From Candidatus Vampirococcus lugosii (GTDB lineage Bacteria; Patescibacteriota; Gracilibacteria; Absconditabacterales; Absconditicoccaceae), in the NCBI RefSeq assembly GCF_018420025.1, contig NZ_JAEDAM010000023.1, positions 1 to 14,251 on the forward strand: 14,251 bases of DNA. The letters run 5' to 3'. Within the stretch, counting starts at the first letter, position 1; the number at the start of each line of letters is the position of its first letter. The position numbers were made by a program, and so were the translations under genes. Below the pieces are notes generated by a model. The model did not search any database. It saw only the letters and a program-made list of their open reading frames with translations, and was not told the origin of the DNA. Shown here piece by piece: positions 1-14,251 of this stretch.

Positions 1-173
1 TTTAAAAATTTAGAAAATCCAGCAACAATATTTTTATCCTTTGTTCATTTACTATTTTTAAAAGAATATCTACTTATTTCTGATAAAGAAATATCTTTTG
101 TTTTCAAAAATCACTGTACTATATCTTTTATTAGTTTATTTGTAATTATATGTAAGTTTATATAATTTATCAT
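1..173 (-). CDS. hypothetical protein, partial (3' end runs off the left window edge)
   Basis: ATG at 173-171. The minus frame is open under table 25 (two in-frame TGA) down to position 3. Begins MINYINLHIITNKLIKDIVQGFLKTKDISLSEISRYSFKNSKGTKDKNIVAGFSKFL. The sense strand is A-rich like the other genes here. It overlaps the upstream small ORF by 38 nt. No recognisable motif. Confidence 0.35.
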
Positions 174-327
174 ACATATTTTCTACAGAATTAGAAATTT
201 CTTGTTCAAAATTCTTTAAATTTAACAGTTTTTTTATATAATTCATTTTCTTATATTTTATTAATTTTAAAGCATTTAAACTTAATTTTAATGCCTCCTT
301 TATACATATTTTTTCATAAATTTCCAT
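136..327 (-). CDS. small hypothetical protein (63 aa from the ATG; 66 aa if the GTG at 336-334 is used)
   Basis: Complete ORF with a TAA stop at 138-136 and no internal TGA. The ATG at 327-325 is preceded by AAAGGTGGA, 4 nt upstream. Sequence MEIYEKICIKEALKLSLNALKLIKYKKMNYIKKLLNLKNFEQEISNSVENMYDKLYKLTYNYK contains no Gly or Pro and is probably all-helical. No family recognised. Confidence 0.45.
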   Translation of the reverse strand: MEIYEKICIKEALKLSLNALKLIKYKKMNYIKKLLNLKNFEQEISNSVENMYDKLYKLTYNYK

Positions 328-331
328 TAAT

Positions 332-340
332 TCCACCTTT
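332..340 (-). promoter_or_regulatory. Shine-Dalgarno-like ribosome binding site (AAAGGTGGA)
   Basis: Plus-strand tccaccttt is AAAGGTGGA on the minus strand, followed by ATTA and then ATG. It is the only clear purine-rich SD I could find upstream of any start codon in this window. Confidence 0.5.
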
Positions 341-446
341 TTTATTTATTCTTTTTATTAGTTCTTAATTAACTTTTCAAGCTTTTTTTATCTTTATTAC
401 TGCAGAAGGTTAGATTAATTAAATTTTAAAAAGATATAAAAATAAT

Positions 447-1301
447 TTACAATAATTTAAGTTTTAATATTTTAATATTAAAATGAAATGTTTTCATTAC
501 TTCAAAATCAAAATATTTTCAATATTCATTTTTTAATATTTCTATTTGATTAGTCATCATTTCCAAAAACATAGTAAATTCAAATTTATCAAGATCTAAT
601 TTTATAATTTGTTCAAACATTTCTCTATATAAATTTAATCAATCATTTCATCATACAAAAGCTATTCTCGGCTCCCACAATTTAACATTATCTTCTACAT
701 CATTATCAAAAGTATTATCTGGAATATATGGCAAATTTCCTATAATAATATTTTCATTATTTTTATAATTTTCAATATTTTCAATAAATTTTTCCAACAA
801 ATTACTTTTACATATTTTTACATTTTCATTTTTTATCAAAATATTTTTATTTATCTGTGCAACTTCCAAAGCTTTTTCACTAATATCAGTAAATATTGCT
901 TGTTGTATATTTTGTATATTATGATAAATTGTGCTTATTCATAGAACTCATGATCAAGTTCATATATCAATTATATTAAATTTTTTATTATTAGATTGTA
1001 TATATTCATTTATAGATTGAATCATATATTCAGTTTCAGGGCGAGGAATTAATGTATTTTCATTTACATAAAATTTAACTCACAAAAATTCTACATATCA
1101 TAATATATATTCCAAAGGTTTATTATTATTTTGATAATCTTTATATTGTTGATCAATTTTTTCATAAACTTTTTTTTCTATTTCATTTTCATATTTTTTG
1201 AATAAATCTTCTTTATTTATATTCAAATTATGGCATATCAAACTTGAAATAACTTTTTTATATTTATATTCAGGATTTGATATTAAATCAATTATTTTCA
1301 T
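447..1301 (-). CDS. prmC: peptide chain release factor N5-glutamine methyltransferase (HemK/PrmC), 284 aa
   Basis: The table-25 ORF joins the track fragments 651..869 and 1098..1301, which share one frame. Motifs: PLEYILGYVEFLGVKFYVNENTLIPRPETE; SAM-binding IIDIGTGSGVLG, with all four Gly encoded by TGA (939-962); GNLPYIP where NPPY is expected; WEPRIAFVGGNDGL. TAA stop at 449-447. Confidence 0.9.
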
Positions 1302-1304
1302 ATT

Positions 1305-3242
1305 TTATTTTCTAATAGTATTTAAAATTTTTGCTACTTCTGCTCTTGTAATATTTTTATCAGGTTGTAGATATCTTTCACCAAATTTATCAAGTTCTAT
1401 TCAATAATCAATCAAAATATTTGAATATTTTCTATCTTCTTTTTCAACATCCCGATAATGTCTATCAGTATTTTTAGCTTTTAATCAAGTTATATGACTT
1501 AACATTTTCATAAAATCTAATCTACTTATTTTATTAAATCTTGATCATTTATAATCTTTTGCTATAGGATAAAAAGTTGTTTTGATTAAATTACTTGCAT
1601 CTTGTTCATTAATATCAAATCAAGGAGCAAAATTGCCTTGTCTATAATTTGTAAAATATCATTTTTTAAGTCAATTTAATATATCTTTTCTAAATTTAGT
1701 ATTTGAATCAATATCTTTTGGCAATATAATATTTTTTAATTTTGATGATCATATTTTTTGATTTCCTTTATATAAATTAAGTATAGACTTTCATTTTTCT
1801 ATGGGAGCTATTTTAAATAAAAATAATCCTTCTAATGTATCTTTATATCAAAATTTTATTTCATCTTGCCAGTTTTTAGGTCAACATTTAATTGTTTTTA
1901 TTTTACTAATATCTCTTATAGAATTGATTCACATAGGACAAATTTTTATATTTTCATTTGATTTTAATGTAAAATTTCATTCATAAGGAACTGATATAAT
2001 ATTAGAATTATTTGAATCTTTCATAATAATTAATCAATCATTTGTTGATCAAATATAATTAGTTCATAAATTATATAATAATCATCTATTTGCTTGTAAT
2101 ACTGTTCAATCATCAACTACTCTTATAGGTATATTTCAAATAATTTTTCCTCATATTTTTATAATTAATCTAGTATGACCAGCTCAAACTGCATTAACAT
2201 GAATTTTTCTTTTTCAATCATTTACCGCAATAACTTTAGTAGGTGATGCTTTAATTACATCCGAATTAAAACTAACTTCCAAATCCATAGGAAGGGATCA
2301 GTTAAAAGGTCTATTTCTAAATAATACTGATAAATCTATTGTTCAATTTTCTCAAACTTTCATTGTATTACCAGGAATATTTGATTTAACTTGCATAGGA
2401 TATCTAGCCAAGAATAATTCTAATTCTGTGAGCATAATTTTTTCTCTTGTTACTATTTCATCTTTTGAAATATGTTCTTCTTTTTTTATGATTTCTTGTA
2501 CATATTCATCTTCTTCTTTTTTTGTTTGTGCTTGTTTTGGTGCATAAGATGCTCAATTTGATTCCAAAAATTTAATTGGATCTATTGTATTTTTTATCAT
2601 TTGTTCTCTACATAATCATTTATTTACTATATCTGCATTTGATCAAATGCAATTTATATAATACCAAGGATGTCTATTATTTTTATTTGTATCTATTTGG
2701 AAATGAACATGATTTCCCCGACTATTTCAAGTAGTTCATATAGTTCATATTCTTTGTCAAGAATTTACTTTTTGTCAAGGACTTACTTGTATATTATACA
2801 TATGTGCATATATACTTCTTATTTGTGATCCTTTAAATTCATGTCTAATAACTACTGTATTTCACCATGATGGAAGAAATTTTGCTATTTCTACTGTTCA
2901 TTCTCAAATTGAATAAAGTGGAGTTCATTGAGCACTTGCTATATCAACTCATGCATGTCATCAATATCAAATATCCCAACCTCATTTATATGTTGCTCAC
3001 CACAAAATTGAATATATCAAACGATAATTCATAGTATCTTTGTATTTTGAATAATTTGTATTTTCAATTATAGGTAAAGGCATTTTACATTCTTCTCAAG
3101 TCGCATTCCAATTTTGAAACTTACATTCTACAGTTGGTTTACTTACTTGTTTTACAGGATATTTAAGATCTAATGAATAAGTAAATCAAATTAATATTAA
3201 TTTGATAATTAACATATTAAATATTAATTTTTTTTTAATCAT
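1305..3242 (-). CDS. secreted or anchored M23 (LytM-type) metallopeptidase with a Big2-like Ig domain and C-terminal SLH repeats, 645 aa
   Basis: All 646 triplets checked; no in-frame TAA or TAG. Hydrophobic N-terminus MIKKKLIFNMLIIKLILIGF. M23 motifs GYGGHAGVDIA (HxxxD), GNTVVIRH, SIYAHM and GTIGTTGNSRGNHVHFQID (HxH). Big2-like segment SPTKVIAVNDGKRKIHVNAVGAGHTRLIIKIGGKIIGNIPIRVVD. SLH-like C-terminus YRDVEKEDRKYSNILIDYGIELDKFGERYLQPDKNITRAEVAKIL. The stop lies 3 nt upstream of the prmC start, so they are probably co-transcribed. Confidence 0.85.
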
Positions 3243-3457
3243 TTTTTTGTTTTATATTTAAAATAAGAGAAATTTGAATTAATTTTTTAAAAATTATAAA
3301 AATATATCTTAATGTTTATATATAATTTTTCAAGATAAAATTTACTAATCATCTATTAAATTAAGGATTTTTGATAAAATAAAAAATTATATATTATATA
3401 AATTTAAATAATTTTTGTTTACAAATATGTGTTTCAAAATAAAAAAACTTTATTTTT

Positions 3458-3484
3458 TTGAATAAATCATTATATACATATAAT
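3458..3484 (+). promoter_or_regulatory. candidate sigma70-type promoter (TTGAAT, 15 nt spacer, TATAAT)
   Basis: Hexamers at 3458-3463 and 3479-3484, 45 nt upstream of the ATG at 3529. The spacer is short, and such matches are easy to find by chance in this AT-rich background. Confidence 0.2.
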
Positions 3485-3528
3485 TTAGTGAAAAAGTTTA
3501 TTTTAAATCAAAAAACATTTTTTCAAAA

Positions 3529-4479
3529 ATGGCTAAAAAAATTATTTCAATTGTGATACCTTTTTATAATGAAGAAGGTAATATAATTCCATTATATAAA
3601 GAAATATCAAGTTCTTTATTAAAAGATTTTGTAAATTTTGATTATGAGATTATCATGATTAATGATTGATCAAATGATAATACTTGGCAAGAAATTCAAG
3701 AAGTAAAAAAACTTGATTCAAATATTGTTTGAATAAATCTTAATAGAAATTATTGACAATCTATAGCTATGGATGCTTGACTACAAAAAGTAAATTGAGA
3801 AATTATAGCTACTATTGATTGAGATGGTCAAAATGATCCTCAAGATATAAAAAAACTTTATGATAAAATGATTGATGAAAATTTGGATTTGGTAGCTTGA
3901 TGGAGAAATAAAAGAAAAGATCCAACTTGGATGCTTGTTATTACCAAAACAGCTAGATTTTTGAGAAGAATAATGATAAACGATTGAGTTCATGATAGTT
4001 GATGTACTCTTAGAATCTATAAAAAAACTGTTATAAATAATCTTTATCTATGGGCAGAAATGCATAGATATATTATTGCTATTTCAAAAATGAATGGTTT
4101 TAAAATATGAGAATTGAAAGTAAATCATAGAGCAAGAACAATAGGTACTTCAAAATATAATTGGAAAAAATCTATAAAATGACTTATAGATTTGTTTTAT
4201 ATTTGGTTTGTTGCAAAATATGAATCAAGACCTTTACATCTTTTTGGTTTTGTCTGATGAATAAATTTTGTAATTTGAAATATATTTTTATTTTATTCAA
4301 TTTATCAAAAAATTTTTGATTGAATTTCTTTAAATAGAAGTTGATGGTTGATACTTGGTATATTTTTGATTCAAATTTGAGTTATTATTTTTATTTTTGG
4401 TATCATAATAGATCTTATGATTAGAAATTATTACAATACTTCTAGAGATAAAAGATATATAATAAGAGAAGAAGTTTAA
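3529..4479 (+). CDS. family 2 glycosyltransferase, polyprenyl-phosphate sugar transferase type (GtrB/DPM1/ArnC-like), 316 aa
   Basis: Triplet-checked ORF. Motifs: ISIVIPFYNEEGNI, IIMINDGSNDNT, NRNYGQSIAMDAG, ATIDGDGQNDPQD, two C-terminal hydrophobic helices, then RYIIREEV. By hand count it has 17 in-frame TGA against 7 GGN codons. Confidence 0.9.
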
Positions 4480-4586
4480 AAGTTTGAAAGTGAAAAAGCT
4501 AAAATAGTTTATTAAAACATTAATATAACAAAAATTATTATTTTAGTATCTTTATAGATGTATAAAAATTAGGATTAAAAAAATAC

Positions 4587-4614
4587 TTGAAATAATAAAA
4601 TATTTATTTATAAG
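4587..4614 (+). promoter_or_regulatory. candidate promoter (cTTGAAA, 16 nt spacer, TATAAG)
   Basis: Hexamers at 4587-4592 and 4609-4614, 35 nt upstream of the ruvX ATG. Confidence 0.3.
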
Positions 4615-4648
4615 TAAAATTATGTTTTATTAATGTAAAATATTTTTT

Positions 4649-5041
4649 ATGAAAAAAAATAGAAGTATATTATGAATAGATTGGTGAAGTAAATATATAT
4701 GAATATCTTATAAATTAAGTGATAATGAAACTATACTTCCCATTTGATATATGATAAATGATGCATCATTTCTATTTTATTTTGGTGAAGTATTAATTAA
4801 ATATAATGTAGAAAAAATAATAATATGATATCCTAATAATAATGAAAAAATACAAGAAAGTATTGATAATTTTATTAAACAATTAGATTTGATCGTATCA
4901 GAAGATGTGGAAATTATCAAACAAAATGAAGATTATTCAACTACAAAAGCATGAGAGATAATGTGAAATTATAGAAAAAATGAAACTACAGATACTATAG
5001 CTTCAATGGAAATATTGAAAGAATATTTAGATGAAACATAA
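4649..5041 (+). CDS. ruvX: YqgF/RuvX family putative pre-16S rRNA nuclease / Holliday junction resolvase-like protein, 130 aa
   Basis: MKKNRSILGIDWGSKYIGISY (the GxDxG..riG motif, with W as TGG and G as TGA side by side at 4682-4687). Also KIIIGYPNNN, QNEDYSTTKAGEIM and TDTIASMEILKEYLDE. TAA stop. Confidence 0.85.
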
Positions 5042-5120
5042 AACTAACTTGAAATAAAATATAAAATCATTATCTATTAATGTATATACTTTACATATTA
5101 TATTTTAACATAAATAATAA

Positions 5121-6206
5121 ATGACTTTTAAAGCAAAAATGGATGATAAAAAAATAAGTGTAGATTTGGATTTAACGACGATTAAAGATGTTTTGCAATA
5201 TTGTAAACCCAAAGAACAATTAGTTTTATTCAAAAAATTTTGATTAAGTTGAAATAAAGAAATTCCATTGCAAAAAATATGAAATGATTATTGATTAACT
5301 AGAGAAAGAGTAAGACAAATAGAATCTCAATGACTTATGAAATTTAGAAGATTAATAGTTTGAAATGAAAGATATATTAAACTTATAAAAGAAGCAACTA
5401 AACTTCTTAAGTCTAATTGATGAATTTTATCAGAAGATAATTTAATATCAAAATTAATTAATAAGTGAAATTTAGATTTTAGAAGTGAAGAAATTAAATT
5501 AGTTTTAGTGTCGGATTTTGATCTGTATTATTTAAAAAGAAATAAAATTTTAAAAAAATCATTTTATTTGGATCCTATATTTGAGGATTTATTAGAAAAA
5601 ATTTCTAAATATTGTGTTGAGTATTTTGAAAAAAAATGAGATTCTGAAGATGTTTACAATTTTGTAGATATTTTAAAAAAACATTTTGAAAATAAATATT
5701 GAAATATTGAATATATACAAAATAATGTTTTTTATATAAATTTATTTAAGTTGATTAAATGAATAAGTGTTTTTGATGGTAAAATATGATTAGATAGTTT
5801 TATATCAGTAAATCCCAAAACTATAAAACAAAAAATTGAATATATATTGGAAAAGGAAAATAATCCATTGCATTATCAAGATATTTCTTCCAAGATAATT
5901 GACTGGTTCAATAAGCCTGTAAAAGTAAATACAGTTCATAATGAATTAGTAAAAAATTCAAATATATTTGTTAATATGTGACTTTGAATTTATTGATTGA
6001 GTAAATGGTGATATAAATGATGAACAGTAAAAGAAATAATAGAAAGAATTCTATTGACATCAAATAGACAAATGACAATAAAGGAAATAACAAAAGAAGT
6101 TTTGAAGGAAAAAATGATAAGTCCTAATACTATAATATTGACTTTACAAAAACATCAAGATATATTTCATAGAGTATGAAAATGAATGTATCAAATTAAA
6201 AAATAA
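5121..6206 (+). CDS. DNA-binding protein with N-terminal sigma70 region 4 HTH and C-terminal HARE-HTH-like winged helices, 361 aa
   Basis: Triplet-checked ORF. N-terminus: KPKEQLVLFKKFGLSGNKEIPLQKIGNDYGLTRERVRQIESQGLMKFRR, a classic region 4.2 pattern. C-terminus: IEYILEKENNPLHYQDISSKII...VHNELVKNSNIFVNMGLGIYGLSKWGY (pattern resembling the RNA polymerase delta N-terminal HARE-HTH), then a second wHTH-like unit IIERILLTSNRQMTIKEITKEVL...IFHRVGKGMYQIK. An alternative in-frame ATG is at 5139. Confidence 0.7.
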
Positions 6207-6245
6207 ATAAAATATTTAAAAAATTTGACTTTTAAATTAAATTTT

Positions 6246-6318
6246 GCCCGAGTAGCTCAGCAGGTAGAGCACTTCCATGGTAAGGAAGAGGTCGCCAGTT
6301 CAAGTCTGGTCTTGGGCT
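6246..6318 (+). tRNA. tRNA-Thr (anticodon GGT)
   Basis: 73 nt cloverleaf folded by hand. Acceptor stem GCCCGAG/CTTGGGC (one G-U), D stem GCTC/GAGC, anticodon stem CTTCC/GGAAG with loop ATGGTAA, 5 nt variable loop, T stem GCCAG/CTGGT with loop TTCAAGT, discriminator T. No encoded CCA. It is a GC-rich island in AT-rich surroundings. Confidence 0.9.
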
Positions 6319-6433
6319 ATTTTAGAATTTAAAATATTTTTTGTTGATTAAATTTTAAAGTATTTTTAATTTAAAATTAAATTTATGTAAGTTAATTTTT
6401 TGTAAAAAAATAATTTATTTTTAAAAGTAAATA

Positions 6434-7372
6434 ATGTATAATTTTATATTATACTGATCATATTTAGTATTTCCATTTTTATTTTTTTTAATTTTTTTAT
6501 TTTTAAAAAAGAAAAAACTTTTTTTAAAAAATAAATTTTTATTAATAATTTTGATTTTATTTTTTTTACTTTCTTTATTGTTTATATATTCAAGATTTGT
6601 AGAAAGAAATTTAATTTTTATTAAAACAACAAAAATTAATGTTTGATTTAATGCAAAATTAGTTGTTGTTTGAGATATGCATCTATGAATATATAAAGAT
6701 GAAAAATTTTTGACAAAAGTTGTTAAGAAAATAAATAACATAAAAAATGTTGATGCAGTTTTGATCCCAGGTGATTTTACATATCATCCAAATAAAGATT
6801 TAAATAAATTATTTTCTCCTCTAAAAAATATAAAAGTTCCAGTTTATGCAGTTCTTGGAAATCATGATAGCAAAAAACTTGGTTCATTAATTCAAAATCA
6901 ATTACAAAAAACTTTGGAAAATAATAATGTAATATTTCTTCATAATACAAGTAGTATTATTGAAAATAAAAATATAAAAATTCTTTGACTTGGAGATAAA
7001 TGGGCAAATGAAGATGATATTTCAAAAATTAACAATTTTTTAAGTGAAGATAATTTAATTGTTTTGACACATAATCCAGATACAAGTATTTTTTATGAAA
7101 ACTCTATTCCAGATCTTACTATAGCAGGACATACACATGGTGGTCAAATTCGTATCCCTTTTATATATAAAAAAAAGATTCCATGTATATATGATTTTAA
7201 TCAAGGTTTGTATGAATTAATTCCTCATCATGTTTCTATTCAGTCAACTAAAAATATTGTTTTTACACAAAATCATTATGGAAAAGTTTTTGTAACAGCA
7301 GGTATTTGAGAAACAGGTTTACCTATGAGATTATTAATTCCTCCAACTATAGAAATTTTAAATTTAAAATAA
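6434..7372 (+). CDS. membrane-anchored calcineurin-like metallophosphoesterase (YkuE/YaeI-like), 312 aa
   Basis: Joins track ORFs 6710..6988 and 7064..7309 and extends upstream to the ATG at 6434. Hydrophobic N-terminus. Motifs KLVVVGDMHLG, AVLIPGDFT, AVLGNHD, LTHNPD and AGHTHGGQIR. TAA stop at 7370-7372. Confidence 0.85.
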
Positions 7373-7464
7373 TTATCGTTTTCTATATGATTAATTTTTA
7401 ATAATTGTTTTTTACATTATTTAGATTTTAAATAGTCTATTATAAATAAAAAAATAATTTTCTC

Positions 7465-7492
7465 TTGAAAAATAATATATAAATAGTATATT
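7465..7492 (+). promoter_or_regulatory. candidate promoter (cTTGAAA, 16 nt spacer, TATATT)
   Basis: Hexamers at 7465-7470 and 7487-7492, 40 nt upstream of the ATG at 7532. Confidence 0.3.
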
Positions 7493-7531
7493 CTAATTTA
7501 TTAATTTAGAATTAAATAAATATTTGATAAA

Positions 7532-7975
7532 ATGAGAGTTTTCGTACCAAGACATATATCTTGATGAATGTTTAATATGAATTTATCAATTGGTCCATTA
7601 ACTATTTCTATGATACAGTTAGCTATATTGGCATTTGGTGCTGTTATATGTCTTTTGTTATGGCAATGACTTTCTTCTTCGTGAATAGATTGAGTAGCAG
7701 CATTTGTTATAATTTTACCTGTTATTATTATTTTTATAGTAATAACATTTTTTAAGATTTCGGAACTAGCTCTTCTTCCTTTTATTGCTAAATTGTTGAG
7801 AACTTATTTTTTTGATGAAGTTCGTAAATTTCAAACTTGAAAAAAAATTGTAGATCCTCAAAAAGTTCTTTTATTAAGGATTAAACAATCTAAACCTGAA
7901 CAAATTGTAACAACTAAAAAAAATACTAGAATAAAAAATGATAAAATTTCAAAAATGGATGATATGTTTAACTAA
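7532..7975 (+). CDS. small two-TM membrane protein, PrgI-family-like (type IV secretion associated), 147 aa
   Basis: Triplet-checked ORF. MRVFVPRHISGGMFNMNLSIGPLTISMIQLAILAFGAVI, a second TM helix, then LALLPFIAKLLRTYFFDE and a basic tail. The VP(Q/R)xI...G-P-L-T...Q opening and two-helix topology recall PrgI family proteins common in CPR genomes. The CDS call is solid; the family call comes from memory of the pattern only. Confidence 0.5.
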
Positions 7976-8005
7976 ATAAATTTAATTTTTTATAGTCAAG
8001 TTTTT

Positions 8006-8977
8006 ATGAATTTAATTGATTTTATATATTTGGATTTGTCAAATTGGTATATTTCTGTCTTTGGTATGTTTTTAGTACTTTTTTTAATGTTTATTTTATA
8101 TTTTTTTAAACATCATTTTGTAGTTCCATTTAGTAAAGTTTTTCATTTTAGATTTATTTCTGAAAAATTATTGTTATTTGTAATATTAATTATATTGTTT
8201 ATATTGCCTCTAAATCCGTCTCTTATTTGAGATAGAGTTGAAGAGGTTGAAAATGTATCAAATATTCAAATACTTTTTGATGTTAGTTTATCTATGGTGG
8301 TTGATGATATGAAACCTTCTAGATTTAAAGTTGCTAAAGATTCTTTATATGAATTTGTAGATAGTTTACATTGATATAATATTTGAATAATTATATATTC
8401 ATGAATTCCTTTTAATTGGTTACCATTTACTACTGAAACAAATGCAGTATTATCAAAAATTGACGATTTTAATCTTTCAGAATTTCCTCCTACTATGTCT
8501 TTTGTATGAACTGCTGTTTGAGATGCTATTTATTTGGGATTAGATAATTTATTTAGATTATATTGAGAGGGTAGTAATCCTTGATCTATAATATTAATTA
8601 CTGATTGAGATACTAATAAATGAACAGATCCTGAACAAGCTGCAAAATATGCAGATGCTTTATGAATACCTATTTATTGAATTTGAATTTGAAAAACTAA
8701 TCAAAATGTATGAACAGATAGTCGATGACTTTGAGTTGCTGCTAAATTTAATTTTTCATTATTAGAAGATATTATTTCACATACTGATTGAAAAGCATAT
8801 CATGTTACTTCTTCTCAAGAATTACAAGAAGTTTTTGATTCTATTAAAAATGAAATTAAAGAAAATGAAGTGGTTGTATACAAAAATGAAATTATTCCAT
8901 TATCATATTATTTATATTTTATTCTTTCTATTTTGATTACAATATTAGTTTTAATTAGATTTTCTTCTATATATTAA
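8006..8977 (+). CDS. BatA-like von Willebrand factor A domain membrane protein, 323 aa
   Basis: Extends track ORF 8006..8230 through TGA codons. Two N-terminal TM helices and a MIDAS-type motif ILFDVSLSMVVDDMKPSRFKVAKDSL. Also GTAVGDAIYLG, IILITDGDTNKG, GIPIYGIGIG and a C-terminal TM. Starts 30 nt after the previous gene. Confidence 0.85.
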
Positions 8978-9119
8978 ATTGTATAATTATATCTTTTCGT
9001 TTTAAAATAAAATTTAGTGATGTTTTTTTATAGTAATTTTTTTTGATTATAAAGATTAGATTGAATAAAAAATATTTAACATTTCATAAATAAGATTAGA
9101 TGAAATTTATTGAAAAAAG

Positions 9120-9149
9120 TTATCTTTTATTTATATAAATATTTAGTTT
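9120..9149 (+). promoter_or_regulatory. candidate promoter (TTGAAA, 18 nt spacer, TATAAA)
   Basis: Hexamers at 9120-9125 and 9144-9149, 22 nt upstream of the ATG at 9171. Confidence 0.25.
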
Positions 9150-9170
9150 TAAAATTTATTATAAATAATA

Positions 9171-10142
9171 ATGAAAGATAATATTAAAGAAAATTGTAGA
9201 ATTAAATGTTTTCCAATTTCATTTTTTTCTGTGATACTTGGAATGTCGGGTTTTACTATAGCTTTTCAAAAAGCTGAAGAAATATTAAAAATTCCTATTC
9301 ATATAAGTTCATATATTTTATTGATTACAATAATTTTTTTTATTCTTATTTCAATTTTATATTTGACAAAAATTATTTTATTTAGAAATAAAGTAAAAGA
9401 AGAATTTAATCATCCTATTAAATTAAGTTTTTTTCCAACATTTTCTATAAGTTTGTTGTTGTTGAGTATAGCTTTTTTGGATATTAATATTGATATATCT
9501 AAATATCTTCGGATTAGTGGAACATTAATTCATTTTGTATTTACATTAAAAATAATATCTATTTGGATTCAAGATATTAAATTTGATATTAAACATATGA
9601 ATCCTGCATGGTTTATACCTGCTGTTGGAAATATATTAGTTCCAATTGCTTGAGTCTCTCACGGTTTTATAGAAATTTCTTGGTTTTTTTATAGTATTTG
9701 ATTATTTTTTTGGATTATTTTGTTGATAATATTTTTTAATCGTATAATATTTCATCATCCTTTACCAGAAAAATTATTACCTACTTTATTTATTTTAATA
9801 GCCCCACCAGCTATAGGTTTTATATCATTTGTAAAATTAACTTGAGAAATAAATGAATTTACAAAAATTTTGTATTATTTTTGATTGTTTTTGGTTTTTT
9901 TATTATTTTCACAAATAAAAATATTTAAAAAAATAAAATTTTATTTATCTTGGTGGGCATATTCTTTTCCTATTGCTTGAATAAGTATTGCTAGTATTTT
10001 GATGTTTAAAGAAACTAATTTTGATACTTTAAAATATATTTCATTATTATTATTTTGATTAACAAATATTATTATATTATTATTATTATTTAAAACATTT
10101 ATTGCTATTTTAAAAAAAGAAATTTGTATTGAAGAAGAATAA
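9171..10142 (+). CDS. TehA/SLAC1 (TDT) family anion or C4-dicarboxylate transporter, 323 aa
   Basis: Extends track ORF 9171..9653. Polytopic membrane protein with about 10 hydrophobic segments. Family-typical stretches FPISFFSVILGMSGF, NPAWFIPAVGNILVPIAG, LFILIAPPAIGF and SWWAYSFPIAG. TAA stop at 10140-10142. Confidence 0.85.
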
Positions 10143-10176
10143 ATTTTTAAATAAAAAAATATTTAAAAATAAAGTC

Positions 10177-10204
10177 TTGAAAAAAAAAATAAAAAAAATA
10201 TTAT
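10177..10204 (+). promoter_or_regulatory. candidate promoter (cTTGAAA, 16 nt spacer, TATTAT)
   Basis: Hexamers at 10177-10182 and 10199-10204, 33 nt upstream of the ATG at 10237. Confidence 0.25.
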
Positions 10205-10236
10205 TAATATTAATTTAATTAAATTCATCATAAAAT

Positions 10237-12435
10237 ATGAAAAAAATAATTATTTTATTATTTATGTTTTTACCATATATAAATTTTGCAAATTGGAATT
10301 TAGATTGAGTTGATATTATTAATAGATCTCAACGAGGTGCTGATGAAAGTTTAAGATATTATGACAATCATGAATATCAAGATATTCTCAAAAGAAAAGA
10401 AGAGTATGAAAAATATCTTAAAGAACTTTATAATGAAGATTATCAAGCTTATTTAAATGCTACCAAAAAATCTAGAATAAATGAAAAAAGAAATAAATAT
10501 GTTTTACAAAATAATCCAAGTAGTATTAGAGTTGATAAAACAATAAATAATTTTAATTGAAATAAATTGCGATGGCCAAACTCTTATTTTTTTGATAAAA
10601 ATTCAATAATAATTCATCATACTGCTAATGATTATACAAAATTTAAAAATAAACAAGAAGTAGAAGTTTTTTTGAGAAATATTTATCGTAGTCATTCAAT
10701 TACTAACTGATGGTGAGATATAGGTTACAATTTTGTTATAGATCATTTTGGAAATATTTATGAATGAAAAAGTGGTTGAGAATGAATTGTTTGAGCTCAT
10801 GCTGTTTGGAATAATACTAGTTCTATTTGAATTTCTTTGATATGACATTTTGATATACAAAAACCAACAAAAGAACAACTTATAAGTTTAACAAAACTTT
10901 TAGTTAGTTTGTCAGATAAATATAATATAAATCCTAAAAAACAAAATTTTTATAATAAACCTTCAAATAATTCTCCATATATGAACATAGTTTGAAATTA
11001 TCCTATAGTAGGTCATAGAGATGTATGAAGTACTGCATGCCCTGGAAAAAATTTATATAATTTGTTGCCTAAAATTAGAGATATAACTTCTTTGAAATTA
11101 GATAAAATAAAATTAAGTTCTTATAAAAAAAATACTGAAAATAACATAAATACTGAAAAAATAAATAAAGATATAAAAAAACATAAAGATATAAAAGCTA
11201 AATCTTCTATTTTTATTTCTTCAAATAAGAAAACTTTAAATATAGAAAGTGAAGCTAGTGAAATTATGAAATATACTAATGATAAAGATTCTATATTTTT
11301 ATCAAATTTTGATATAATAAATTGAAATATACAATTTGATATTGAATACAAAAAATATAATGCCAGTGGTAAACATAAAATATTTATAGAAACTGATAAA
11401 GAAATAATTAATTATGAAATTAATCTTGTTTGGCAAAAAGATTTATATAATATAATGAAAAATAAAAAAGATAATTATTTGAAAAATATTGAAAATCCTT
11501 TGACAAACAATAGAATGAAAAAAATTAAATCTAAAATTAACTTAAATGATGCTATTAATTATTTAACAAAAAATGTAAAAGTTCTATTATATGAATTAAG
11601 TAGTAAATTTAATACTTATGAAATATCTTGTACTTCGTCTTGTGATTTGGAAATTGATGCTATAAATTTTGAAAATATTAATAATTTAACAATTAATAAA
11701 AATTGAAATTTTTTGAAATTATATATTGATTGAAAAAAATATTATTCAAGTTATATTAATTTAATTAATAATGAATGATTTATTGTTTTTGAAAATTATG
11801 ATAGAAAATCATATTGATGAATCCCATGGAATAAATTTAGATGAAATATAAATATAAAAAGAGATTTGATAAAACCTATATGAAAAAAAGTAAAAACAGA
11901 TTGGACTTTGGTAAATGATTTACCTTTTTTTGATTATATGAAATGAATAGTAGAAACTAATGATCAAGAACATATTGAGAAAAATAAATTAATGTCTTTG
12001 ATAAGTAAAAATTATATGTTATTTTATTTTGATAAATCAAACGAACATCCAAGTATTCCTAGTAATGCAAAATATAATGCTATAGACGATGCAAGAATTT
12101 TTCAAAAATATTGAGGTGCTTGAGTTGAAGATACTTTGACAAAATGGTATTCTGCTCTTGAACAAACATGGAATGAAATAGTTTATTATGATAATTATAT
12201 TCCTATATTACCTTATTATAATTGTTCATCTTGATTTACTTGGTCAGCAGAAGAAAGATTTGGTTGGATAGATACTAGTTATTTACAATCCAAAATTGAT
12301 TTTTTTTCTTGTGATAAATTTAATTGACATTGAGTAGGTCTTAGTTGAAGAGGTTCAGAATTTTTGGCAAATAATTGATTAAATTATAAACAAATTTTGA
12401 AATATTATTATATTTGAGTTGATATTTATGAATAA
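10237..12435 (+). CDS. secreted bifunctional cell-wall hydrolase: N-acetylmuramoyl-L-alanine amidase (Amidase_2/PGRP fold) fused to a SpoIID/LytB domain, 732 aa
   Basis: All 733 triplets checked. Signal-like N-terminus MKKIIILLFMFLPYINFA. Amidase_2 motifs [51 protein letters not shown] and IVGHRDVGSTACPGKNLY. A long K/N-rich linker follows. SpoIID motifs YMKGIVETNDQE...LISKNYMLFY, IFQKYGGAG, YYNCSSGFTWSAEERFG and GHGVGLSGRGSEFLANNGLNYKQILKYYY. Absorbs track ORFs 11062..11325 and 11455..11706. Confidence 0.85.
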
Positions 12436-12509
12436 TATTGTGAATTTTTTGATTATTTATAAATAATATTTATTATATAATATATTTATATTATAAAGAA
12501 TTATTAATT

Positions 12510-12893
12510 ATGTGAAATAAAATGTTTTTGTTGATAATATATATTTTTCAATTAATATTTGCTGTATGAACATGATTTTGATTATCATTATATTATATAT
12601 CACAAAATGAAAATAAAGATAATTCATCATCTCAACAAGAAATAAATGATGATTTACTAGATGAGCAATATAATATATGATTTCAAGATTGAAAAAGTAT
12701 AGCATTTTGAGAAGTAGTAAAAAGTTGATTGAATCAAGAATGTAAAACATTCTCAGTGAAAGCTGGATTAAATCAAAATTGAGAAGTTAAAGATTACTCT
12801 GTTACTTTAATAAATGTAGATTGTTTAAATATACAAAATAATAACACTGAACAAAATAATAACACTGAACAAAATAATGCAGAATGAAATTAA
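12510..12893 (+). CDS. small N-terminally anchored or secreted hypothetical protein with QNNNTE tandem repeat, 127 aa
   Basis: Triplet-checked ORF. ATG TGA AAT AAA ATG opening, with an alternative start at 12522. Hydrophobic N-terminus FLLIIYIFQLIFAVGTGFGLSLYYI, two Cys, and a C-terminal N/Q-rich repeat. No family recognised. Confidence 0.6.
12834..12878 (+). repeat. 18 nt in-frame tandem repeat, 2.5 copies (caaaataataacactgaa, encoding QNNNTE)
   Basis: Two identical copies at 12834-12851 and 12852-12869, and a 9 nt partial third copy at 12870-12878. Confidence 0.85.
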
Positions 12894-13321
12894 TAAACTT
12901 TTTTTAAACTCATCTTTGTAAATAAAAAATAGTTTATTTTATAGTAGTAAATATTATTGTATTTTTTCATTACACATAATATGTTTATTAAAAGAAAGTA
13001 CTCGCAAATATAATTGAAAAACTTATATCACTTATTATCTTGTTGAATCTTATAGAGATAAAGATACAAAAAAGTAAAAATACTATCAAAAATTGAATAA
13101 AACAAATTGATGATAATAATCTATATAAAGCAATTAATTATCTTGAAGAAAATCAAAAAGAAATTATACAGTTAAATATACAAAAATGTACATTAGATAC
13201 ATTATTAACTGAATTAAAAAATGTAAGTAAAGTTTACTTTAAAATAGATAATATACATATAAATAAAGTAGAACAAATAAATGAGCTTCAAGAAAAAATA
13301 TTTAAATTATTTAAAATAAAA

Positions 13322-13357
13322 ATAGATTTGTGTAGTACACAAATCTATTTTTATTTT
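13322..13357. terminator. candidate bidirectional rho-independent terminator
   Basis: Perfect inverted repeat atagatttgtgta / tacacaaatctat (13322-13334 and 13336-13348). It is preceded by an A-run (aaaataaaa) and followed by tttttatttt. It lies between the convergent gene blocks and is the only hairpin with G/C pairs seen in the intergenic DNA. Confidence 0.55.
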
Positions 13358-13362
13358 CTTGA

Positions 13363-13387
13363 AAATCCTTGTTTAAATCAAGGATTT
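13363..13387. other. second stem-loop (9 bp stem aaatccttg / caaggattt, 7 nt loop)
   Basis: Seen directly at 13363-13371 and 13379-13387. caagga recurs at 13403-13408, so an alternative pairing is conceivable. Function unknown; it may assist termination of the minus-strand gene ending at 13488. Confidence 0.3.
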
Positions 13388-13487
13388 AGAAATTTTGTTT
13401 TACAAGGATGAGATTAAATAAAATTTTAAGTATTAATTATATAATTAATTTATTAATAAAATTAAACTTTTTTTTAATAAACAGATA

Positions 13488-14251
13488 TTATTTATTATAT
13501 ATTTTTATATTATCTATTAAATATTTTTTTAATATATCTTCACTATATTCATATTTTTTGTTTCATATATGAATATTTCATATTATATTATCTAATTTTT
13601 TTGAATTAAGTTCTTCATTTGTCTTTTTAAATATAGTATTTATACTTCATATATTATTATTTGATGTATTATTATTTCATATATCATTATTTCATATATT
13701 TTTTCATAAATTATTACCTAATATATAATTAATATTATCAAAACTTTTTATTTTATTTATATTTTTTTTAAATTCATTTAATATTTGTCTATCTTTTTCA
13801 GTTTTTATAGAGAATTTTATTCATTTTATTTCTTTAAACTTATCTTGTTTTCAATCATAAGTATGAGTTATTTGTCAGTCAAATAATTTTAATTTATTGG
13901 TATTATTAAAATTTATTTTATAAATTCAATTATTTAGATCTGCATCTAAATATCTTTTTTGTACTATAAAAAAATTTAAACAAAAACTTACAAATAAAGT
14001 TGATAAAATTATAGGCAATATAAAAAATATTATAATATTGTATATATCATTATCAATATAATTAACATTATCAACATTAATTTTTTTGTATTTATTTAAA
14101 TTTACATGTTTTCTTTGATAAATTCAAACTTCTTTTTGTGTTCAAGAGGATTCTTTTTCAAGAACAAAATCTTTTCAAGAATATGAAAAATAGTAAAGAA
14201 TAACTTTTTCTCAAACAGTGTATGATTTAGTATTTTCTCAATAAATTCTTT
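13488..14251 (-). CDS. hypothetical membrane protein, partial (5' end beyond the right window edge), at least 253 aa
   Basis: The minus frame is open under table 25 from the window edge to TAA at 13490-13488; triplet-checked, many TGA. One clear TM helix IYNIIIFFILPIILSTLFVSFCLNFFIV. C-terminal N-rich region with a repeated I-G-N motif. No in-frame ATG within the window. Confidence 0.7.

What the first reader, a model, noticed from the sequence alone, without database searches (positions are those of the whole stretch)
1..14251. TGA is read as glycine throughout (table 25), so standard-code gene calls are wrong
The standard code yields only short, partly antisense ORFs. Reading TGA as sense yields long uninterrupted ORFs with recognisable family motifs, and TGA lands on invariant glycines. 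Examples: all four Gly of the PrmC SAM motif IGTGSGVLG (939-962); GT2 INDGSNDNT (TGA 3667-3669) and IDGDGQ; M23 GYGGHAGVD and TTGNSRGNHVHF; metallophosphoesterase VVVGDMHLG; vWA ITDGDTNKG. In RuvX GIDWGS, Trp is TGG and the adjacent Gly is TGA, which argues against the Mycoplasma-type TGA=Trp code. In the GT2 gene I count 17 TGA against 7 GGN, so TGA is the majority Gly codon there. The UGA=Gly reassignment is established for SR1/Absconditabacteria and Gracilibacteria, so this places the sequence rather than being new. It does determine every other call here.
Basis: partly seen in the sequence, partly recalled or inferred. Interest (0 to 1): 0.7.

Follow-up and report, generated by a model that had tools for sequence, protein, structure and literature searches.

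The report
UGA-as-glycine code in Vampirococcus contig

Summary
With TGA as stop, the window holds only 8 frames of 100 aa or more (933 aa). With TGA as sense it holds 12 tightly packed genes (longest frame 733 aa; shuffles reach at most 199). All 189 in-frame TGA codons behave as glycine. Profiles built from standard-code homologs of three families give Gly +56.5 bits, Ala -2.6 and Trp -63.6. Pfam scores rank G above X above W in most families. TGA supplies 77% of the glycine codons.

The finding is already known. My table-25 translations are identical to NCBI records of Candidatus Vampirococcus lugosii on a 14,251-nt contig. Moreira et al. 2021 state UGA=Gly for this genome.

One qualification: table 25 is probably incomplete here. 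The window has 3 CGA and 3 CGG codons. The two in conserved columns sit at nearly invariant Trp positions (SLAC1 aa114, W in 112/120 homologs; amidase aa33, W in 108/114). None sits at a conserved Arg. In low-GC relatives, 10 of 10 CGA/CGG codons in the GT2 ortholog replace TGG. This matches the Codetta prediction of CGA/CGG=Trp for Absconditabacteria (Shulgina & Eddy 2021).

tRNA(UCA) and prfB could not be tested from this window.

The parts
447..1301 (-). HemK/PrmC release-factor glutamine methyltransferase, 284 aa, 10 in-frame TGA, stop TAA
   Evidence: Nine of 9 aligned TGA positions are Gly in T. maritima HemK. Identical to NCBI MBS8121927.1. The CGC at aa87 is the invariant Arg of the PRPETE motif.
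1305..3242 (-). M23 peptidase with a weak SLH-like C-terminus, 645 aa, 44 TGA; CGG codons at 2718-2720 (aa175) and 1452-1454 (aa597)
   Evidence: Pfam Peptidase_M23 scores 90.8 bits with G against 42.5 with W. Both CGG codons lie in variable columns and are uninformative.
3529..4479 (+). GT2 glycosyltransferase (ArnC/GtrB-like), 316 aa, 17 TGA, 7 GGT, 7 TGG
   Evidence: Equals NCBI MBS8121931.1, which has G at all 17 TGA. Forty-two standard-code homologs give G +28.1 and W -25.5 bits.
4649..5041 (+). RuvX/YqgF, 130 aa, 7 TGA; the GIDWGS motif has Trp=TGG next to Gly=TGA
   Evidence: Pfam RuvX scores 58 (G), 36.9 (X) and 31.6 (W) bits. Codons checked. Equals MBS8121933.1.
5121..6206 (+). Sigma-70 region 4 + HARE-HTH protein, 361 aa, 21 TGA
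   Evidence: Sigma70_r4 scores 36 bits with G against 18.2 with W.
6246..6318 (+). tRNA-Thr(GGU), the only tRNA in the window
   Evidence: ARAGORN and Rfam RF00005 at 64 bits.
6434..7372 (+). Membrane-anchored metallophosphoesterase, 312 aa, 6 TGA against 11 GGN
   Evidence: Pfam Metallophos scores 62.7 (G) and 54.9 (W) bits. Codon counts.
7532..7975 (+). Small membrane protein, 147 aa, 6 TGA
   Evidence: The same gene call appears in independent Logan annotation. The only family match is a weak PrgI hit.
8006..8977 (+). BatA/BatB-like vWA membrane protein, 323 aa, 18 TGA; CGA at 8723-8725 (aa240)
   Evidence: Pfam VWA (PF00092, 56 bits) hits only with G. Eight of 12 TGA positions are Gly in BatB 3ibs. 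The CGA lies in a variable region.
9171..10142 (+). SLAC1/TehA anion channel, 323 aa, 6 TGA against 6 GGN; CGG at 9510-9512 (aa114)
   Evidence: The CGG column is W in 112/120 homologs, and W in plant SLAH3 and SLAC1 structures. Three of the six TGA columns are G in 118, 118 and 108 of 120. Of the other three, one is mainly A with G second (66 vs 41), one is A in 110/120, and one is variable. Equals MBS8121938.1, which carries R114.
10237..12435 (+). PGRP/Amidase_2 N-acetylmuramoyl-L-alanine amidase with a SpoIID-like C-terminal region, 732 aa, 29 TGA; CGA at 10333-10335 (aa33) and 10570-10572 (aa112)
   Evidence: The aa33 CGA sits in the RxxWGADE column, which is W in 108/114 homologs. The relatives L084 and L085 also use CGA there. 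Equals MBS8121924.1, which carries R33 and R112.
12510..12893 (+). Hypothetical protein, 127 aa, 10 TGA
   Evidence: The same gene is called in the Logan assembly. Codon counts.
13488..14249 (-). 3' part of a gene that runs off the right end of the window; 253 aa visible, 15 TGA, Asn-rich
   Evidence: Open frame with TGA as sense. No family match was sought.

Best explanation
The window is the 14,251-nt contig of Candidatus Vampirococcus lugosii (phylum Absconditabacteria/SR1, Candidate Phyla Radiation) that is already in GenBank. In this organism UGA is a sense codon for glycine. It is in fact the dominant glycine codon: 189 of 244 in this window.

Shown here:
- TGA-sense frames are real genes.
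- TGA columns are Gly in standard-code homologs.
- All 12 genes stop at TAA.
- The public records use the same translation.

Inferred from the literature on this clade, not from the window: UGA is read by a dedicated tRNA-Gly with anticodon UCA, and release factor 2 (prfB) has been lost, so termination relies on RF1 at UAA/UAG. The extreme AT bias (19.7% GC) then drives GGN to TGA replacement. GGA to TGA is a single synonymous change under this code.

The code is very probably wider than table 25. CGA and CGG, which are rare here (6 of 3,953 codons), are read as tryptophan, as Codetta predicted for Absconditabacteria. If so, the public protein records carry Arg where the cell inserts Trp.
For: Identity of the window. 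Table-25 translations of five genes match NCBI V. lugosii records exactly, all on a 14,251-nt contig. The lineage is given. The genome paper states UGA=Gly and used Prodigal with table 25.

TGA=Gly.
- ORF gain far beyond chance.
- Pfam scores rank G above X above W in most families; in two, W scores marginally above X.
- PDB homologs have Gly at 41 of 58 TGA positions and Trp at none in the best hit.
- Log-odds over 34 columns are G +56.5, A -2.6, W -63.6, while TGG gives W +66.1 and every other codon with n>=5 is standard.
- Composition.
- In close relatives translated with table 4, the same conserved Gly columns show a G/'W' mosaic (568 W against 432 G). This is what synonymous GGN/TGA exchange would produce.

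Not an artefact. Two independent assemblies are identical.

CGA/CGG=Trp.
- Window SLAC1 aa114 and amidase aa33 lie in near-invariant W columns.
- In GT2 orthologs of low-GC relatives, 10/10 CGA/CGG codons lie where V. lugosii has TGG and 0 lie in Arg columns.
- In the amidase relative L084, CGA sits at the invariant W of GWGDIGYN and at two further W columns.
- Among 74 recoded relatives, the GT2 W columns read W144/R34/F25/Y12, while R is essentially absent from other conserved non-basic columns.
- The prediction itself is in Shulgina & Eddy 2021.
Against: Neither tRNA-Gly(UCA) nor the absence of prfB can be checked. The only tRNA in the window is tRNA-Thr(GGU). None was found in relatives' loci, and the paper's supplements mention nothing.

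About a quarter of TGA positions align to non-Gly residues (Ala, Ser, hydrophobic) in distant homologs. These are variable columns, as expected. One amidase TGA aligns to W in a second PDB hit, within a gapped stretch.

For CGA/CGG only 2 of the 6 window codons are informative. Amidase aa112 lies in a column that is K in several near relatives and V/L/I further out, which fits neither Arg nor Trp cleanly. No direct protein-level evidence exists for the Trp reading.
Confidence: 0.95

Rival explanations
1. Strict table 25: TGA=Gly, but CGA/CGG still encode Arg in V. lugosii. The codons at SLAC1 aa114 and amidase aa33 would then be genuine Trp-to-Arg substitutions (TGG to CGG/CGA).
For: Only two informative codons occur in the window. 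Amidase aa112 (CGA) aligns to Lys in several near relatives. A high-GC member of the wider group (L005, 53.6% GC) uses CGA/CGG at conserved Arg columns, so the reassignment is not universal. Public annotation uses Arg.
Against: Arg at two nearly invariant Trp positions, with no CGA/CGG at any conserved Arg, would be a striking coincidence. The same W-to-'R' pattern recurs in many low-GC relatives, always with CGA/CGG codons: 10/10 in GT2 and 5 in the amidase. Conserved Arg columns use AGA, AGG or CGY.
Confidence: 0.15
2. Mycoplasma-type code (table 4): TGA encodes tryptophan.
For: The sequence has very low GC and many in-frame TGA. Several public pipelines (Logan and others) did translate this locus and its relatives with W at TGA.
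Against: W lowers the Pfam score below the X-masked score in most families, and G always scores highest. Log-odds for W are -63.6 bits over 34 columns. Trp content would be 5.7% and Gly 1.4%. TGG already occupies the Trp columns (+66.1 bits). In RuvX, TGG and TGA are adjacent at W and G.
Confidence: 0.01
3. TGA is a stop, and the region is a field of pseudogenes, non-coding DNA or an assembly/sequencing artefact. Alternatively, TGA is selenocysteine or programmed read-through.
For: Under table 11 only short ORFs appear.
Against: Homology runs across the TGA codons over full domain lengths, and gene ends coincide with TAA. The ORF lengths are impossible by chance. The DNA is identical in independent assemblies. 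With 189 TGA at Gly columns, Sec or read-through is excluded. Rfam finds nothing but a tRNA.
Confidence: 0.005

Closest known systems
[quoted passage not shown] 2013, Rinke et al. 2013)
   Same: UGA is read as glycine, UAA/UAG are the stops, and the lineage is low-GC CPR. This very genome was published and annotated with table 25.
   Different: Nothing differs for UGA. Table 25 keeps CGA/CGG as Arg, whereas the evidence here places them at Trp columns. TGA use is extreme here at 77% of Gly codons; relatives in the GT2 family range from a few to nearly all Gly columns.
Codetta-predicted Absconditabacteria code: UGA=Gly plus CGA and CGG=Trp (Shulgina & Eddy 2021, eLife 10:e71402)
   Same: CGA/CGG are rare (15 per 10,000 codons here, against TGG at 96), sit at conserved Trp columns and are absent from conserved Arg columns. 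Arg is encoded by AGA. A higher-GC Gracilibacteria-labelled relative keeps Arg.
   Different: The published prediction rests on six other species and is computational only. Here it is seen in a V. lugosii contig on just two informative codons. The tRNA evidence used in that paper could not be reproduced from this window.
NCBI translation table 4 (Mycoplasma/Spiroplasma, several insect endosymbionts): UGA=Trp
   Same: A UGA stop is reassigned to sense in a small, AT-rich genome with presumed RF2 loss.
   Different: The amino acid is Gly, not Trp.

Membership tests
Genetic code 25 (UGA=Gly, SR1/Gracilibacteria) | In-frame TGA within conserved genes; reading through restores full-length homologs | tested here: met
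   Twelve genes with 189 in-frame TGA. Gene lengths equal those of homologs. Shuffle control.
Genetic code 25 (UGA=Gly, SR1/Gracilibacteria) | TGA positions align to conserved glycine in standard-code homologs | tested here: met
   G +56.5 bits over 34 columns with the next best at -2.6. Forty-one of 58 positions are Gly in the best PDB hits.
Genetic code 25 (UGA=Gly, SR1/Gracilibacteria) | tRNA with anticodon UCA carrying glycine identity (G1:C72, C2:G71, G3:C70, U73) | not testable with these tools
   The only tRNA in the window is tRNA-Thr(GGU). The identity criteria are quoted.
Genetic code 25 (UGA=Gly, SR1/Gracilibacteria) | Absence of release factor 2 (prfB) | not testable with these tools
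   There is no prfB in the window, but 14 kb says nothing about the genome. The literature reports RF2 loss as a hallmark.
Genetic code 25 (UGA=Gly, SR1/Gracilibacteria) | Organism belongs to Absconditabacteria or the recoded Gracilibacteria (BD1-5) | tested here: met
   Exact protein identity to Candidatus Vampirococcus lugosii records on a 14,251-nt contig. The lineage is Candidatus Absconditibacteriota.
Genetic code 4 (UGA=Trp) | TGA positions align to conserved tryptophan | tested here: not met
   W scores -63.6 bits. Pfam scores with W fall below the X-masked scores in most families, and G always scores highest.
Extended Absconditabacteria code (CGA/CGG=Trp, Codetta prediction) | CGA/CGG codons fall in conserved Trp columns and not in conserved Arg columns | tested here: met
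   In the window, 2 of 2 informative codons lie at W columns (112/120 and 108/114), 4 lie in variable columns and 0 at conserved Arg. In relatives, 10/10 in GT2 and 5 in the amidase lie at W columns.
Extended Absconditabacteria code (CGA/CGG=Trp, Codetta prediction) | tRNA(UCG) and/or tRNA(CCG) with tryptophan identity (G73, no A20) | not testable with these tools
   No such tRNA occurs in the window or in the fetched loci.
Extended Absconditabacteria code (CGA/CGG=Trp, Codetta prediction) | Very rare use of CGA/CGG, with AGA as the main Arg codon, in a low-GC genome | tested here: met
   Counts are CGA 3, CGG 3, AGA 88 and TGG 38 in 3,953 codons at 19.7% GC.

The most novel reading that the evidence does not exclude
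Vampirococcus lugosii uses a code that no NCBI table describes: UGA=Gly (the majority glycine codon) plus CGA and CGG=Trp. Its published and RefSeq proteome, and those of relatives such as Absconditicoccus praedator, would then carry Arg at positions where the cell inserts Trp. Six such positions occur in this window, including SLAC1 R114 and amidase R33. As of 2026, code-prediction tools still choose only among tables 11, 4 and 25.
Probability: 0.8. Interest if true: 0.35.

Novelty: already known. Interest (0 to 1): 0.15.

Why it matters
For the scan, it settles how the window must be translated. Every gene call under table 11 is wrong, and calls under table 4 put Trp at 189 glycine positions.

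Biologically it adds nothing new on UGA, because the recoding was published for this very genome in 2021.

The practical value lies in two side results:
- Public protein collections hold this locus and most of its relatives in table-4 translation, with W at Gly columns. This distorts homology searches and alignments.
- The window gives independent support, in a further genome, for the still unconfirmed CGA/CGG=Trp reassignment. Current tables and annotation pipelines ignore it.

Tried and rejected
**Other stop reassignments.**
- TAG as sense gives no gain (1,405 aa).
- TAA as sense gives many frames, but they are short (316 aa at most), overlapping and on both strands, as expected when the commonest triplet of an 80% AT sequence is removed. 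I did not pursue it, because the TGA-sense frames match families and NCBI records exactly.

**Table 4.** Rejected.

**Repeats and RNA families.** Only low-complexity AT-rich chance matches and one tRNA turned up.

**The search of protein representatives.** The multi-family test therefore rests on three homolog searches plus PDB.

**RuvX against PDB.** With X-masked sequence only a marginal hit appeared.

**The search for related loci on GTDB genomes.** It recovered few recoded relatives, because back-translated patterns use GGN/TGG and never TGA. V. lugosii itself was not retrieved, and no synteny for the other window genes was found.

**tRNA scan of relatives' loci.** It found nothing.

**Literature.** The Moreira et al. 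supplements hold nothing on tRNA-Gly(UCA) or prfB. Campbell et al. 2013 is not held.

**An apparent CGA at an Arg column in L085.** It lies in a non-homologous C-terminal tail and was discarded.
Full report
**1. The observation**

The window is 14,251 nt at 19.7% GC. With TAA, TAG and TGA as stops there are 8 stop-to-stop frames of 100 aa or more (933 aa in total, the longest 162 aa). Two of them are antisense to what turn out to be the real genes. With TGA as sense there are 25 such frames (5,761 aa), including frames of 733, 648, 361, 333, 331, 325, 313 and 285 aa. Making TAG sense gains nothing.

In 200 dinucleotide-preserving shuffles the longest TAA/TAG-free frame averaged 113 aa and never exceeded 199. 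Total residues in frames of 100 aa or more averaged 160. The long frames are therefore not a by-product of composition.

They resolve into 12 genes covering 83% of the window, all ending in TAA, with 189 in-frame TGA. An independent automatic annotation of the same locus in two Logan assemblies calls the same genes with the same lengths. Those assemblies are 99.99% and 100% identical to the window, so the TGA codons are not assembly errors.

- the four TGA of the PrmC SAM motif at 939-962;
- TGA at 3667-3669;
- TGG next to TGA in RuvX GIDWGS;
- the M23, metallophosphoesterase and vWA motifs;
- 17 TGA against 7 GGN in the GT2 gene.

**2. What TGA encodes**

*Pfam scores.* I scanned ten proteins against Pfam three times, with X, W or G at every TGA. 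G always scores highest and W scores below the neutral X in most families; in two (Amidase_2, HARE-HTH) W is marginally above X.

| Family | X | W | G |
|---|---|---|---|
| Peptidase_M23 | 58.3 | 42.5 | 90.8 |
| Glycos_transf_2 | 87.7 | 79.6 | 106 |
| RuvX | 36.9 | 31.6 | 58 |
| Sigma70_r4 | 23 | 18.2 | 36 |
| Metallophos | 57.5 | 54.9 | 62.7 |
| VWA_2 | 28.8 | 22.1 | 37.6 |
| SLAC1 | 175 | 166.6 | 188.8 |
| Amidase_2 | 58.3 | 58.9 | 66.6 |

The PrmC methyltransferase domains and PF00092 VWA reach significance only with G.

*Solved structures.* X-masked queries against solved structures, all from standard-code organisms, put Gly opposite TGA as follows:
- 9 of 9 positions in T. maritima HemK;
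- 6 of 9 in the catalytic domain of ArnC;
- 8 of 12 in an M23 peptidase;
- 4 of 6 in plant SLAH3;
- 6 of 10 in a PGRP;
- 8 of 12 in BatB.

That is 41 of 58 in total, and never Trp in a best hit.

*Profile log-odds.* I built profile HMMs from standard-code homologs only: GT2 42 sequences, SLAC1 119, amidase 108. I aligned the masked window proteins to them and summed log-odds per codon, in the manner of Codetta.
- TGA (34 columns): Gly +56.5 bits, Ala -2.6, Trp -63.6.
- TGG: Trp +66.1.
- AGA: Arg +54.6.
- No other codon with five or more columns departs from the standard code.

*Composition.* With TGA=Gly, glycine is 6.2% of residues. Without it, glycine is 1.4%. With TGA=Trp, tryptophan would be 5.7%.

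TGA supplies 189 of 244 glycine codons (77%). The rest are GGT 37, GGA 17, GGC 1 and GGG 0.

**3. What the window is**

The GT2 protein search returned, at 100% identity outside the masked positions, 'glycosyltransferase family 2 protein [Candidatus Vampirococcus lugosii]'. It lies on a contig of 14,251 nt and has G at all 17 TGA. A second entry from Logan assemblies has W at all 17.

An exact-sequence look-up showed that my table-25 translations of five genes are identical to NCBI/RefSeq/UniProt records of V. lugosii, all on that contig:

| Gene | NCBI record |
|---|---|
| SLAC1 | MBS8121938.1 |
| Amidase | MBS8121924.1 |
| PrmC | MBS8121927.1 |
| RuvX | MBS8121933.1 |
| GT2 | MBS8121931.1 |

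The species belongs to Candidatus Absconditibacteriota. The genome paper (Moreira et al. [quoted passage not shown]

The finding is already known for this exact sequence.

**4. How it works**

*Shown here.* UGA is sense and means Gly. UAA is the stop used by all 12 genes. TGA has largely replaced GGN.

*Inferred from established knowledge of the clade.* A tRNA-Gly with anticodon UCA decodes UGA, and RF2 has been lost. The sources are Campbell et al. 2013 and Rinke et al. 2013 as summarised. Shulgina & Eddy note that the two 'Gracilibacteria' genomes without the reassignment lacked tRNA-Gly(UCA) and encoded RF2.

*Not testable.* Neither feature can be tested from 14 kb:
- the only tRNA is tRNA-Thr(GGU);
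- no tRNA lies in the relatives' loci I could fetch;
- the paper's supplements are silent.

The window does encode PrmC. In this setting it would have only RF1 as a release-factor substrate; this is an inference.

The dominance of TGA fits AT mutation pressure, since GGA to TGA is a single synonymous step under this code. In relatives translated with table 4, the conserved Gly columns show a G/'W' mosaic (568 'W' against 432 G across 74 sequences and 14 columns). That is the footprint of synonymous exchange.

**5. Where the evidence led beyond the finding: CGA and CGG**

Shulgina & Eddy (2021) predicted with Codetta that Absconditabacteria also reassigned CGA and CGG from Arg to Trp. They stressed that this is computational only.

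The window has three CGA and three CGG codons, against 88 AGA and 38 TGG. Two lie in conserved columns, and both columns are tryptophan:
- SLAC1 aa114 (CGG, 9510-9512) sits in ...SKYL[W]ISGT..., where 112 of 120 homologs have W. These homologs are 56-76% identical and almost all from standard-code bacteria. The only 'R' is the same gene from Logan. Plant SLAH3 and SLAC1 structures also have W there.
- Amidase aa33 (CGA, 10333-10335) sits at the W of the RxxWGADE motif, which is W in 108 of 114 homologs. The six 'R' all belong to close recoded relatives.

The other four codons lie in variable columns: M23 aa175 and aa597, vWA aa240 and amidase aa112. None lies at a conserved Arg. Conserved Arg positions use AGA or CGY, for example CGC at the invariant Arg of PrmC PRPETE and CGT at SLAC1 R191.

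At codon level in relatives:
- The GT2 orthologs in L014, L082 and L083 (GC 26-31%) contain 10 CGA/CGG codons. All 10 lie where V. lugosii has TGG, and none lies in an Arg column.
- The amidase orthologs L084 and L085 use CGA at the W33 column. L084 also uses it at the invariant W of GWGDIGYN and at W191.
- Among 74 recoded relatives, the three GT2 columns that are 90% or more W in standard-code homologs read W144/R34/F25/Y12. Column W226 is W110/R10 and nothing else.
- The NCBI protein of Absconditicoccus praedator has R at W175.
- By contrast, a 53.6% GC 'Gracilibacteria' relative (L005) uses CGA/CGG at six conserved Arg columns. This agrees with the published view that the reassignment is not universal in the wider group.

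The profile log-odds for the two informative window codons are W +6.0 against R -1.2 (CGA) and W +4.2 against R -0.9 (CGG).

I put the probability that V. lugosii reads CGA/CGG as Trp at about 0.8. The main reservations are the small number of informative codons in the window, the awkward column at amidase aa112, and the lack of tRNA or peptide evidence.

If this is true, table 25 mistranslates six codons here, and the public records carry Arg at those sites.

**6. Comparison with what is known, and verdict**

For UGA this is a textbook member of genetic code 25. It was published as such, and it is clearly not code 4. The two defining features that need the whole genome, tRNA-Gly(UCA) and no prfB, remain untested here.

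The CGA/CGG pattern matches a published computational prediction for the clade. It extends that prediction to one more genome, so it is at most a new member of a known kind. It is worth recording because annotation tables and code-prediction tools still ignore it.

Noticed in passing
window 9510-9512, 10333-10335, 10570-10572, 8723-8725, 2718-2720, 1452-1454: These are the six CGA/CGG codons of the window. The two in conserved columns lie at nearly invariant Trp positions, and none lies at a conserved Arg. In low-GC relatives CGA/CGG consistently replace TGG. This fits the Codetta-predicted CGA/CGG=Trp reassignment, which table 25 and the NCBI records (R at these sites) do not reflect.
   Followed up: yes
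window 9171-10142 (SLAC1/TehA gene): This protein is 56-76% identical to homologs from standard-code bacteria (Bacteroidota, Ignavibacteria, Nitrospirae, other Patescibacteria). The GT2 protein, by contrast, reaches only about 50% outside the recoded clade. TGA supplies only half of its Gly codons (6 of 12), against 77% overall. This may reflect a fairly recent horizontal acquisition from a standard-code donor followed by partial GGN-to-TGA drift.
   Followed up: partly
P0002, P0241 and 74 of 120 GT2 homologs; loci L001, L002: Large public protein collections (Logan, ENA, JGI) hold this locus and most Absconditabacteria/Gracilibacteria relatives translated with table 4. They have Trp at every TGA-encoded Gly: 6-9% Trp and 1-2% Gly. 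This depresses homology scores and corrupts alignment columns.
   Followed up: partly
window 726-740 (PrmC aa 188-192): The catalytic NPPY motif of HemK/PrmC reads N-L-P-Y here (AAT TTG CCA TAT), where T. maritima HemK has NPPY. I did not check whether relatives share this.
   Followed up: no
all 12 gene ends in the window: Every gene stops at TAA. TAG is never used as a stop or in frame. With 12 genes at 19.7% GC this may simply reflect composition.
   Followed up: no
window 1-446, 3243-3528, 12894-13487: These are three stretches without a convincing gene. Their GC is 16.8%, 10.1% and 16.0%. Region 12992-13417 is open for 141 codons on the + strand but has no ATG. Region 1-175 on the - strand may be the start of a gene running off the left end.
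   Followed up: partly
window 1305-3242 and 10237-12435: Two large secreted or membrane cell-wall hydrolases lie in one 14-kb window of an epibiotic predator. One is an M23 peptidase with a weak SLH-like C-terminus. The other is a PGRP-type amidase with a weak SpoIID-like region. A role in attacking the prey wall is plausible but was not examined.
   Followed up: no
L005 (Gracilibacteria MAG JANQGT010000049.1, GC 53.6%): This GT2 ortholog has only 3 TGA among its Gly codons and uses CGA/CGG at conserved Arg columns. This high-GC relative therefore has the UGA=Gly change without the CGA/CGG change.
   Followed up: partly
The search for related loci: Back-translated search patterns use GGN for Gly and TGG for Trp, so loci that encode the pattern residues with TGA are missed. 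V. lugosii itself was not retrieved, and only about six recoded relatives were.
   Followed up: no
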